DNA from: Octopus vulgaris
Lineage: Eukaryota
Direction: 5' to 3'
NCBI GenBank assembly: GCA_951406725.2
Contig: OX597814.1
Coordinates: forward strand, 1,426,001-1,490,000
Length of the DNA: 64,000 bases
The position numbers and the translations under genes were made by a program. Position 1 is the stretch's first letter; every line of letters begins with the position of its first letter. Shown one piece after another: positions 3,551 through 57,156 of this stretch. A model generated the notes under the pieces. The model saw nothing but the letters and a program-made list of their open reading frames with translations, was not told where the DNA came from and did no database searches.

Positions 3551-3958
3551 GTTTAGAAAATCTATGTCTGTTTGTAGAAGAAATCTAATTTTACTATTGA
3601 ATTTCTTTATTTTCGTGACTGTTTGCTTTCGACAGTTTCCAACTGATGTTTCCCAGGAACCCTTTGTCTTTGAGATATGGTTATGGAACCGATATTTCAG
3701 GAAAGATACGTTTAAAGATAAATCGACGAGATTTCCATGGACGAAATGTTTAGCCTTGAGATCTTTTGCTGAGTGATTCTTTCAAAAATACCCCAACGTA
3801 GCTACAATACTTCAGATTTCCTTCTAATTTTTCTTGCTTCTCACAGATTCGCGCGAATTAACGAGGAAAATTCTGCGCAGTGAAGTAGCAAGAAATAACA
3901 GCCAAGCCACTTCAAATCAGGAAATACTATCTTAAACAAGGAAAGACACATTGAGCAT

Positions 3959-12431: not shown

Positions 12432-12505
12432 AGGCGGGTACGGGACTCGAACCCGTACCCGCTTAGATACCGGCTGAGAGCTCTAACCATTAAGCTAAAA
12501 GGCCC
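12432..12505 (-). pseudogene. tRNA-like module, probably TE-borne; second degenerate copy at 12707-12767
   Basis: A box TAGCTTAATGG, B box GGTTCGAGTCC, T-stem ACGGG/CCCGT, anticodon loop CCGGTAT; acceptor stem poorly paired. Confidence 0.55.
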
Positions 12506-39541: not shown

Positions 39542-39819
39542 CACTAGGCATATAGACACTGTGTGTAAATGCTGACTGGTTAGATAGGCACAGAGTGTAG
39601 GGGGATGTTGATTGTATCGGGACAGTATAGAATTGCTGACCGGAAAGATAATTACGGTTTGTAGATGTTGGTTAGTCGGATAGGCACAGTGTGTCGATGT
39701 TGATTGGGTAGACACTACATAAATATTGATTTCAAATTTTGGCACAAGGCCAGCAATTTTGAGGGAGGGCGTAAGTCGATTACATCGACTTCAGTGTTTA
39801 ACTGGCACTTATTTTATCG

Positions 39820-40090
39820 AGTATCCTGCATATCACAGGCCTTTAATGAGGACTTGACACAGTCCTTAAATCGTAGCCCTGATTTCTGCCGAGGTCTCTT
39901 TCCATACACAAGTTCCCCATATAGCATCTGCTTAGGGATCCTGCTATCCTTCATTCTAATAAGGTCCAACGTAACTGGTGCTTGTGCACCATCGCCTCAA
40001 TACTCAAGATATCAACTATCTTCAGGACCTGTTTGTCTGGAGTTTTCAAGGTCCGACCAACATTCAAAATGTTCAAGGACCCTTATTGTT
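39820..40090 (-). pseudogene. RTE-clade LINE ORF 3' fragment
   Basis: Minus strand SIEAMVHKHQLRW / LIRMKDSRIPKQMLYGELVYGKRPRQKSGLRFKDCVKSSLKAC matches the RTE LRW.GH..RM...R.PK..LYGEL..GKR motif. Confidence 0.8.
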
Positions 40091-40379: not shown

Positions 40380-41124
40380 GTTCTATATTTAAGAGACGAG
40401 GAATTATGTACATTATTTACATGTTCTCATCTTGTTTGTTGTTGTTAACACAACATTTCGGCTGAGGTGTCTTGGGGAAATTTCGAACCTGGGTATTTTT
40501 CGGCGTCATGGAACTCGGAATCTCGGGGTTAGTAGTCCGCGCTCTTAACCACTACGCCATATGCCCGTGGGCAATCATGGAATGAATTTTAGGGCTTATA
40601 AATCTAATATTTTCCTATCCTTCCTTAATATCGGTTCCCATATGCTGCTCATATCTGCACTCGGTCTGCTTGGGAGGATGTTGTGTCCTAGCATATGTGC
40701 TGCTTCTTTTAGTTTTCGTATTTTCCAGTGGTGTTCTCTGTCTATTATTCTAACTTCATCCCAAAGGGGGAGGTGGTCTCCATTTTTTCATACATGATCA
40801 GCTATGTCCGATTTATCTCCTCGTGTCACAGTTTTGTGATGTTCCTCTACCCTTATTTTGAGGTGGGTGGCATGTTTCGCTTTGTATGACCTACCACATC
40901 TGCATGGCATGGAGTACACGCAGTTCTTAGTCATATTCTCTTCGAATGGAAGTTTTACTCGAAGGAAATATTTGCGAAGTGTTGTATTACTTTTGAATAC
41001 TGTCCTGATGTCATATGGGCCGCATATCTTTTGTATCTTTTCGGAGGCTGGAGGGTATATCAGCCGAAACGTTGTGTTAACAACAAGCAAGATGAGGACA
41101 AATATCCGTCGAATGTAAATAATG
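40380..41124 (-). mobile_element. 5'-truncated Penelope-like retroelement with inverted pLTR cap
   Basis: GIY-YIG remnant, then tRNA-like module, deleted HHR and tail; 41045-41124 is an inverted copy of the HHR/tail region. Confidence 0.85.
40596..41045 (-). pseudogene. Penelope/Poseidon-type C-terminal GIY-YIG endonuclease fragment
   Basis: IRTVFKSNTTLR..NCVYSMPCRCGRSYKA..LKIRVEEH..SDIADHV*KNGDHLPLWDEVRIIDREHHWKIRKLKEAAH..WEPIL fits the PLE motif VY.IPC.CG..Y.G.T...L..R..EH..S..A.H..R..KE. Confidence 0.85.
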
Positions 41125-55598: not shown

Positions 55599-56542
55599 GT
55601 GGAAGCACTCCGTCGGTTACGACGATGAGGGTTCCGGTTGATCCGATCAACGGAACAGCCTGCTCGTGAAATTAACGTGTAAGTGGCTGAGCACTCCACA
55701 GACACGTGTACCCTTAACGTAGTTCTCGGGGATATTCAGCGTGACACAGAGAGTGACAAGGCCGGCCCTTTGAAATACAGGTACAACAGAAACAGGAAGT
55801 AAGAGTGAGAGAAAGTTGTGGTGAAAGAGTACAGCAGGGATCACCACCATCCCCTGCCGGAGCCTCGTGGAGCTTTAGGTGTTTTCGCTCAATAAACACT
55901 CACAACGCCCGGTCTGGGAATCGAAACCGCGATCCTAGGACCGCGAGTCGGCCCTTTGAAATACAGGTACAACAGAAACAGGAAGTAAGAGTGAGAGAAA
56001 GTTGTGGTGAAAGAGTACAGCAGGGATCACCACCATCCCCTGCCGGAGCCTCGTGGAGCTTTAGGTGTTTTCGCTCAATAAACACTCACAACGCCCGGTC
56101 TGGGAATCGAAACCGCGATCCTAGGACCGCGAGTCGGCCCTTTGAAATACAGGTACAACAGAAACAGGAAGTAAGAGTGAGAGAAAGTTGTGGTGAAAGA
56201 GTACAGCAGGGATCACCACCATCCCCTGCCGGAGCCTCGTGGAGCTTTAGGTGTTTTCGCTCAATAAACACTCACAACGCCCGGTCTGGGAATCGAAACC
56301 GCGATCCTAGGACCGCGAGTCGGCCCTTTGAAATACAGGTACAACAGAAACAGGAAGTAAGAGTGAGAGAAAGTTGTGGTGAAAGAGTACAGCAGGGATC
56401 ACCACCATCCCCTGCCGGAGCCTCGTGGAGCTTTTAGGTGTTTTCGCTCAATAAACACTCACAACGCCCGGTCTGGGAATCGAAACCGCGATCCTAGGAC
56501 CGCGAGTCCGCTGCCCTAACCACTGGGCCATTGCGCCTCCAC
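55599..56542 (-). mobile_element. OR-type SINE with four internal 186-bp tandem units and 11-bp TSD
   Basis: TSD ATAACACATAT (55588-55598 / 56543-56553); units start at about 55764, 55950, 56136 and 56322. Confidence 0.92.
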
Positions 56543-56753
56543 ATAACACATATAATATATCTCTGTTAATGTGTCAGCATTCGATAAACGTTGCATATTT
56601 ATCAAGCTGAGTTAAATTTTGATGCGCAAGTGTACATACATTTATACGTACGTACGTAAACAGACGAAAATATGTACGCAACTCTCTTCTGTTTTTAATC
56701 ATTTAAATACTTCCCCGGAGGAAGGAGCTGGTTTCTGACGAAGATACAAAGCA

Positions 56754-56983
56754 GTTCTATATTTAAGAGATGAGGAATTATGTACATTATTTACGTTATT
56801 TACATTATTTACATTTGACGGATATTTGTCTTCATCTTGTTTGTTGTTAACACAACGTTTCGGCATATGGCGTAGTGGTTAAGAGCGCGGGTTACTAACC
56901 CCAAGATTCCGAGCTCGATTCCAGGCAGTCACCTGAATAATAATAATAATAATAACAATAACAACAACAACAACAACAACAAC

Positions 56984-57036
<53 letters not shown>

Positions 57037-57156
57037 CAACATCGAAAAATACCTTAGGAATGAGAACCCAGGTTCGAAATTTCCCCAAGACACCTGATGA
57101 AGGCTGGAGGGTATATCAGCCGAAACGTTGTGTTAACAACAAACAAGATGAGGACA
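56754..57156 (+). mobile_element. tRNA-headed, hammerhead-tailed SINE-like element with inverted 5' cap
   Basis: Inverted tail 56754-56864; tRNA head 56862-56935 (A box TGGCGTAGTGG, B-like GAGCTCGATTCC); (AAT/AAC)n; HHR; tail shared with the PLE at 40380-41124. Confidence 0.85.
57089..57134 (+). ncRNA. Minimal type I hammerhead ribozyme (PLE type)
   Basis: GACAC-CTGATGA-A-GGCTG-gagggtatat-CAGCC-GAAAC-GTT-GTGTT; palindromic AACGTT in place of helix III. Confidence 0.75.

What the first reader, a model, noticed from the sequence alone, without database searches (positions are those of the whole stretch)
40380..41124. Penelope GIY-YIG remnant with a tRNA-like Pol III module in its 3' UTR: the candidate autonomous partner
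Seen on the minus strand: GIY-YIG C-terminus ending TAA at 40596; about 30 bp later the tRNA-like module (40511-40566); then the HHR locus with core and helix II deleted (CACCT^CAGCCGAAA); then the tail. The 5' truncation point carries an inverted HHR/tail copy (41045-41124). This links the tRNA+HHR cassette physically to PLE coding sequence. An internal tRNA-derived promoter is not a standard PLE feature to my knowledge.
Basis: partly seen in the sequence, partly recalled or inferred. Interest (0 to 1): 0.8.

Follow-up and report, generated by a model that had tools for sequence, protein, structure and literature searches.

The report
Penelope retrotransposon with tRNA-derived promoter
An abundant Penelope-type retrotransposon carries a tRNA-derived sequence at the start of its terminal repeat, most short copies begin right there, and its copies share no polymerase III stop signal on the coding strand, so it is likely transcribed by RNA polymerase III, which is unexpected for a protein-coding transposon.

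Summary
Observation confirmed and extended. The window copy is a dead, deleted remnant of a Penelope/Poseidon-type PLE family (order of 10^4 copies). In the family, a tRNA-Arg(ACG)-derived head with A and B boxes follows the GIY-YIG stop (72 of 76 ORF ends, usually 30 nt after it), then (AAT)n, a minimal hammerhead and the tail. The head also lies upstream of the ORF start, so it opens the pseudo-LTR. Of 56 hammerhead-selected copies reaching the head, 40 end at its first bases and 5 continue into the endonuclease, which likely marks the transcription start. Short and long copies share subfamily variants, so this is one family, not a SINE plus a partner. No TTTT run is shared along the 2.7-kb sense strand (P about 0.002-0.05 by null), whereas a Neptune-like PLE of the same genome has 8-9. 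Best reading: a PLE whose pseudo-LTR promoter is a captured Pol III promoter. Transcription itself is untested, and a Pol II start at the same place (TATA-like motif 30 nt upstream) is not excluded. Analogues: Schistosoma Sm-alpha, Cassandra/Helenus; all described as non-autonomous.

The parts
40599..41044 (-). 5'-truncated end of the PLE ORF: linker and GIY-YIG endonuclease, broken by a TGA at 40788-40790 and a 6-nt deletion
40567..40598 (-). Stop codon (inside a TATA-like TTTATAAG) and 29-nt spacer, whose 3' part is a degenerate inverted copy of the head's first bases
40508..40566 (-). tRNA-Arg(ACG)-derived head, positions +1 to about +58; A box 40549-40559; B box broken by a deletion in this copy
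40472..40507 (-). Remnant of the middle segment; (AAT)n tract and the family's in-frame ATG deleted in this copy
40447..40471 (-). Hammerhead locus with catalytic core and most of helix II deleted
   Evidence: intact form
40380..40446 (-). Tail (= ORF N-terminal sequence), ending at the distal of the family's two 3'-end clusters
41045..41124 (+). Inverted copy (hammerhead helix II to the proximal 3'-end cluster) joined at the 5' truncation point by short microhomology
56862..57156 (+). Second family insertion in the window: short unit starting at head +2, with full head, (AAT)n, middle segment, intact hammerhead and partial tail
56754..56864 (-). Inverted hammerhead-half and tail copy at the 5' side of the short unit

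Best explanation
This is a dead piece of a Penelope/Poseidon-type retrotransposon family whose pseudo-LTR begins with a tRNA-Arg-derived head that likely serves as an internal RNA polymerase III promoter. Shown: the anatomy (head, (AAT)n, minimal hammerhead, tail, ORF, same repeat again), the pile-up of 5' ends at the head, two 3'-end clusters, and no shared TTTT on the sense strand. Inferred: Pol III would start at about -7 to +1 and, meeting no terminator, could run through the 2.5-kb ORF and into tandem units. The PLE protein would start reverse transcription internally in a tail, as shown for the Anolis element. A start in the first tail would give the ~280-nt SINE-like units (about 90% of copies reaching the head); a start in a later tail would give the long, 5'-truncated copies such as the one in the window, often with an inverted second product.
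For: Head after 72 of 76 distinct ORF ends, mostly at +30, and upstream of the ORF in 3 of 30 N-terminus-selected copies. Head is tRNA-Arg(ACG)-like with both boxes kept and the acceptor and T stems unpaired. Of 90 hammerhead-selected copies, 56 reach the head: 40 end at -18..+9, 11 inside it, 5 in the endonuclease; per-base truncation rate about 8% there against 0.2-0.3% on either side. Contigs of runs labelled organisms B and D show the same boundary at -7 with an inverted head (loose ends at 3610). No T4 run is shared by 25% or more of copies over 2.7 kb, against 36 A4, 9 C4 and 1 G4. Zero T4 over 831 codon columns against 2.7, 4.1 or 5.4 expected (P0 0.054, 0.010, 0.002). Neptune-like PLE ORFs of the same genome and T content carry 8-9 T4 in 781 codons. 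Metagenome PLE ORFs show 471 T4 against 452 expected, with zero in 3 of 59. 3' ends: 73 of 89 fall in two clusters about 30 nt apart, matching the two RT start sites in PMC11167929.
Against: No transcript evidence: only contigs were available, which give no strand or start. The T4 deficit is borderline under the most conservative null (P0 0.054), and 3 of 59 control ORFs are also T4-free over 1.3-2.3 kb. A TATA-like TTTATAAG lies about 30 nt upstream of the head, so Pol II could start at the same place. A hairpin spanning about -14..+10 could favour fold-back there. Two of the three 5' pseudo-LTRs that reach the head extend upstream of it (L142, L148), so some templates began further up. Pol III is held to be poorly processive (PMC10886601). 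All copies seen are decayed (6-7% from the column-commonest letter).
Confidence: 0.6

Rival explanations
1. Pol III makes only the short units from each head; the full-length mRNA and template come from Pol II (pseudo-LTR or upstream read-through), and the T4-free ORF is chance.
For: P0 is 0.054 under the element's own codon usage. Some long templates start upstream of the head. Known PLE promoters resemble TATA-less LINE promoters (PMC2377424).
Against: Under less conservative nulls P0 is 0.002-0.01. The Phe TTT share lies further below the other NNY codons (0.32 vs 0.53) than in any of 59 controls. No polypyrimidine tract or intron signature is seen in the pseudo-LTR.
Confidence: 0.22
2. The head is an inert passenger (a tRNA-derived SINE head or tRNA pseudogene captured once by the master). 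The 5' pile-up reflects a Pol II start directed by the TATA-like motif, or fold-back at the hairpin.
For: TATA-like motif at about -34..-30 and a hairpin over -14..+10. Many copies show fold-back exactly at the head. (AAT)n after a tRNA head looks like a simple SINE tail.
Against: Copies without fold-back also start at +1 to +6. Both boxes are kept while the tRNA stems are lost. No head with a different consistent body was found: 27 of 30 head-selected copies continue into the middle segment, hammerhead or tail within 1.5 kb. It does not explain the T4-free strand.
Confidence: 0.13
3. The short units are an independent SINE lineage with their own masters, mobilised in trans by the PLE.
For: About 90% of copies reaching the head stop there; each keeps promoter and tail and could propagate.
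Against: Short and endonuclease-linked copies share the same three subfamily variants at similar frequencies (head 64, hammerhead T/A, tail 136; p 0.25-1) and the same divergence; one CpG site differed.
Confidence: 0.05

Closest known systems
Penelope/Poseidon PLEs (D. virilis Penelope; Anolis PAc/Poseidon_Ac)
   Same: Single ORF with RT and C-terminal GIY-YIG, pseudo-LTR made of the 3' UTR, minimal hammerhead overlapping the ORF start, two 3'-end sites defining a tail, inverted 5' copies (PMC11167929 parts 1-2, PMC8557442 passages, PMC4209133 parts 1-2).
   Different: Their described promoters are LINE-like internal promoters overlapping an intron (PMC2377424 abstract and discussion). Here the repeat opens with a tRNA head and the sense strand has no shared T4.
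Schistosoma Sm-alpha / Sj-alpha SINE-like repeats
   Same: Pol III promoter followed by a type I hammerhead (PMC6765202, passages).
   Different: Non-coding, described as tandem and as losing the promoter after cleavage; no link to a PLE ORF in the passages read. Here the same module is the repeat of a coding PLE.
TRIMp3: Cassandra, Helenus, Ajax
   Same: Small-RNA-derived Pol III promoter inside the terminal repeat (PMC10886601, passages).
   Different: Non-autonomous LTR elements of 0.3-1.3 kb; the author states that their autonomous partners must use Pol II. Here the repeat belongs to the coding element.
Animal non-LTR retrozymes
   Same: Short hammerhead units related to PLE pseudo-LTRs (bioRxiv 10.64898/2026.07.22.740005, part 1 and term search).
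   Different: Defined as tandem repeats; the text has no occurrence of 'tRNA' or 'promoter'. Here the units seen are dispersed, often as inverted pairs.
Octopus tRNA-derived SINEs OK, OR1, OR2 (Ohshima and Okada 1994)
   Same: Recalled: OR1 and OR2 were described as tRNA-Arg-derived, a few hundred bases long.
   Different: Paper not held. OR2 is listed as a CORE SINE (PMC4758252, passage). Whether OK or OR1 is this short unit could not be tested.

Membership tests
Penelope/Poseidon PLE | Single ORF with RT followed by a C-terminal GIY-YIG endonuclease | tested here: met
   Natural copies carry N-terminus, RT and EN in order; RVT_1 hit; alignment to full PLE proteins. No intact copy seen; Pfam GIY-YIG does not hit.
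Penelope/Poseidon PLE | DKG motif, CCHH motif in EN, no zinc finger in the RT-EN linker | tested here: met
   Alignment A1; contrast with the linker cysteines of the Neptune-like L450.
Penelope/Poseidon PLE | Pseudo-LTR with partial-tandem and inverted arrangements and a tail | tested here: met
Penelope/Poseidon PLE | Minimal type I hammerhead in the pseudo-LTR | tested here: met
   Sequence and fold: helix I 5 bp, helix II 6 bp, palindromic helix III site. Cleavage not tested.
Penelope/Poseidon PLE | RT phylogeny inside the clade | tested here: inconclusive
   Quick tree of 31 rows: groups with P0001 (99), far from the Neptune-like rows, deep forks open; only one reference (Anolis protein) can be tied to a named family.
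Penelope/Poseidon PLE | Pol II-type internal promoter with a 5' UTR intron | tested here: inconclusive
   No polypyrimidine tract in the repeat; no transcript data.
tRNA-derived SINE | tRNA-derived head with A and B boxes at the 5' end | tested here: met
tRNA-derived SINE | Transcribed by Pol III | not testable with these tools
   Only contigs available.
tRNA-derived SINE | Own non-coding master lineage, mobilised by a LINE | tested here: not met
   Shares variants and age with ORF-linked copies; 3' ends and inversions are PLE-type.
tRNA-derived SINE | Target-site duplications | not tested
   No systematic search made.
Non-LTR retrozyme / Sm-alpha | Head-to-tail arrays of non-coding hammerhead units | tested here: not met
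   Sampled copies are single or inverted pairs, with rare direct neighbours such as L092/L153.
TRIMp3 (Cassandra, Helenus, Ajax) | Non-coding element with true LTRs | tested here: not met
   The repeat flanks an RT-EN ORF and overlaps its start.

The most novel reading that the evidence does not exclude
An autonomous, protein-coding retrotransposon whose whole 2.9-kb RNA, mRNA and template alike, is made by RNA polymerase III from a captured tRNA promoter, with the ORF purged of TTTT terminators; the same repeat yields SINE-like short copies through internal initiation of reverse transcription, making one element both LINE and SINE.
Probability: 0.45. Interest if true: 0.87.

Novelty: new variant of a known kind. 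Interest (0 to 1): 0.7.

Why it matters
Small-RNA-derived Pol III promoters are described in non-coding mobile elements (SINEs, Sm-alpha, Cassandra, Helenus), and PMC10886601 states that their autonomous partners must use Pol II. A coding retrotransposon run by Pol III would break that rule, give a natural case of an uncapped Pol III mRNA, and show a direct route from a PLE pseudo-LTR to SINE-like and retrozyme-like units. The pile-up of 5' ends also gives a genomic read-out of a PLE start site, and the T4 count is a cheap screen for further cases. If the host is an octopus, part of what is annotated there as SINE may be this PLE repeat.

Tried and rejected
ARAGORN and Rfam do not detect the head or the hammerhead, so the Rfam scan of 20 of the 80 control loci (one unrelated tRNA-like hit in a flank of L283) says little. 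Pfam GIY-YIG does not match this family's EN. Sequencing runs: no RNA holder listed; four runs were laid as contigs and give no strand, start or level. A sister Penelope/Poseidon family without the head was not found in G000: all 30 loci fetched from the Anolis-protein search belong to this family, so the empty site and the capture event could not be shown. The careful tree did not finish; the quick tree was used. The A/B-box pattern used on controls (0 of 28 loci with a 3' UTR) finds only 27 of 76 of the family's own decayed copies, so it shows only that heads are not general in PLEs. tRNA-Thr, -Lys, -Ala and -Cys scored below Arg as parent among the tRNAs fetched; not all isotypes were sampled. 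Ohshima and Okada 1994 is not held. Earlier findings of the scan: none. Paper searches with no hit.

Full report
Observation. The copy is dead: it has a TGA at 40788-40790, a broken B box, and no (AAT)n tract. The peptide has no Pfam GIY-YIG match but is 52% identical to the C-terminus of PLE protein P0001 and 24% to an Anolis PLE protein. A second insertion of the family lies at 56754-57156.

Host and family. G000 has 2.8 Gb in 227 contigs. From size and microsatellite content I take it to be an octopus; this is an inference, not a tool result. Walking upstream through natural copies recovered an ORF of about 2.5 kb with N-terminal region, DKG motif, RT (RVT_1), a linker without zinc finger and a GIY-YIG domain with CCHH. 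It is 53% identical to P0001 and 40% to the Anolis protein over 461 residues. A quick tree of 31 rows joins it to P0001 and sets it far from the Neptune-like PLEs of the same genome, with deep forks open. No intact copy was seen; copies differ by 6-7% from each column's commonest letter. Exact matches number 285 for a 46-mer of the head and 460 for a 60-mer of the middle and hammerhead. With exact-match rates of 3 of 72 and 1 of 38 in ORF-selected copies, this gives very roughly 10^4 copies. The element, head bins included, is covered by contigs of runs labelled organisms A, B, D and E.

The head is part of the pseudo-LTR. Among copies chosen by EN, RT, N-terminus or the Anolis protein, the head follows 72 of 76 distinct ORF ends, mostly 30 nt after the stop. 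Of 30 N-terminus-selected copies, 3 have the head upstream of the ORF: L126 starts at head +3 and runs through (AAT)n, hammerhead and tail into the ORF; L142 has heads at both ends (L184); L148 is a partial tandem. The ORF frame is open from an ATG in the middle segment through the hammerhead and tail, P0001 has matching residues there, and the Anolis PAc ORF also starts within its hammerhead (PMC11167929, parts 1-2 read). The hammerhead folds with a 5-bp helix I, a 6-bp helix II and a palindromic helix III site, the minimal dimer type of PMC4209133 (parts 1-2 read). The head aligns best with the genome's tRNA-Arg(ACG), score 70 against a shuffle maximum of 41; A and B boxes are kept while acceptor and T stems no longer pair.

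Where copies end. I sampled 90 of the 460 hammerhead-pattern hits (the first 90 listed). Of these, 56 reach the head; the other 34 break earlier, many in (AAT)n where other repeats insert. Of the 56, 40 end at -18..+9 of the head's first base, 11 inside the head and 5 in the endonuclease (L398 and L399 share flanks and may be one event; ends at -14 and -17 are largely fold-back artefacts of the alignment). The truncation rate per base is about 8% in that window against 0.3% and 0.2% beside it. Among 30 of the 285 head-pattern hits, 1 reaches the endonuclease, 2 end at -20 and -21, and 27 end at -17..+8. Loose contig ends at -7 with an inverted head appear in runs of organisms B and D. At the 3' side, 73 of 89 alignable copies end in two clusters about 30 nt apart, as expected from the two internal RT start sites reported for PAc. 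Short and ORF-linked copies share three subfamily variants at similar frequencies and have the same divergence; one CpG site differed. The short units are therefore best read as products of the same masters: a template that starts at the head and is copied from the first tail.

Which polymerase. A 5' pile-up marks a start site but not the enzyme: a TATA-like TTTATAAG spans the stop codon about 30 nt upstream, and a hairpin covers about -14..+10. The discriminating feature is the terminator. Over the 2.7-kb sense strand no run of four or more T is shared by 25% of copies, against 36 A, 9 C and 1 G run (122 segments). In 831 codon columns there are 0 TTTT; expected are 2.7 under the element's own codon use (P0 0.054), 4.1 with Phe set to the other NNY codons (0.010) and 5.4 from four-fold sites (0.002). 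Nine near-full natural copies hold 0-4 T4 and no T5. Controls: Neptune-like ORFs of the same genome and T content have 8-9 T4 in 781 codons, four of them T5 or longer in L450 and L453. Of 80 metagenome PLE loci, the 59 with at least 1.2 kb matched hold 471 T4 against 452 expected; 3 have none, and the two of these with a 3' UTR have T4 there. These loci include redundant families. None of 28 control 3' UTRs has an A/B pair, with a pattern that finds 27 of 76 own copies. The T4 evidence is thus moderate, not decisive.

Mechanism. Shown: anatomy, end distributions, shared variants, T4-free strand. Inferred: Pol III starts at about -7..+1 in a pseudo-LTR and, lacking terminators, can read through the ORF and tandem units, which would also explain the two 5' repeats that extend upstream of the head. 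Internal RT initiation makes a defined 3' end unnecessary. The uncut RNA would be the mRNA, since hammerhead cleavage would remove the ATG. Protein from Pol III promoters is reported for reporters once TTTT is removed (PMC8223928, passages; Gunnery and Mathews 1995 seen only as a reference title). Against this stand the absence of transcript data, the TATA-like motif and the limited processivity attributed to Pol III (PMC10886601, passages).

Comparison and novelty. The family works like, and on the features tested belongs to, the Penelope/Poseidon PLEs. Described PLE promoters are LINE-like internal promoters overlapping an intron (PMC2377424, abstract and discussion; PMC8557442, passages, whose single 'tRNA' occurrence concerns selenocysteine). 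Pol III promoter plus hammerhead is known from Schistosoma Sm-alpha (PMC6765202, passages; PMC8490949, passages), and Pol III promoters in terminal repeats from Cassandra, Helenus and Ajax; all are non-coding. A 2026 preprint derives animal retrozymes from PLE pseudo-LTRs without mention of tRNA or promoters (part 1 and term search; supplements closed). A 2026 Octopus vulgaris repeat annotation lists Penelope and SINE classes with no link between them in the passages read (PMC13282606; supplements not read). Ten searches found no report of a tRNA-headed PLE pseudo-LTR, but Repbase Reports, SINEBase entries and Ohshima and Okada 1994 could not be read, so the short unit may already be named as an octopus SINE. 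Verdict: new variant of a known kind, interest 0.7; the full Pol III reading has probability about 0.45.

Noticed in passing
window 12432-12504 (-): Lone tRNA-like sequence (Rfam tRNA 39.9 bits) with mismatched stems, not called by ARAGORN; probably a pseudogene or SINE head.
   Followed up: no
window 56200-56545 (-): A different tRNA-headed SINE-like repeat with an internal duplication of about 120 bases, 200 bases from the second PLE insertion.
   Followed up: no
window 39814-39996 (-): Short frame resembling the C-terminus of an RTE-type LINE ORF (resemblance recalled; no Pfam hit).
   Followed up: partly
L450-L453 (G000 C16, C17, C6): A young Neptune-like PLE family with many identical-length 781-codon open frames, a linker zinc finger, no hammerhead or A/B match by my patterns, and repeated TGATGACGTC motifs in its 3' UTR; likely recently active.
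   Followed up: partly
L173, L365, L392, L400, L012, L107: The (AAT)n tract of the pseudo-LTR is often interrupted by other recurring repeats, which appear to target this microsatellite.
   Followed up: no
L273 (G000:C2:211898500-211901200): Tandem array of tRNA-Arg(ACG) genes at about 206-base spacing, including copies with a TCG anticodon on the ACG body.
   Followed up: no
window 40567-40580 (-) and family spacer: The spacer just upstream of the head is a degenerate inverted copy of the head's first bases; it could be the scar of the fold-back insertion that brought the head into the master.
   Followed up: partly
L284, L285, L326: Three control PLE ORFs from metagenome contigs are also T4-free over 1.3-2.3 kb but show no A/B boxes in the 3' UTRs available.
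   Followed up: partly
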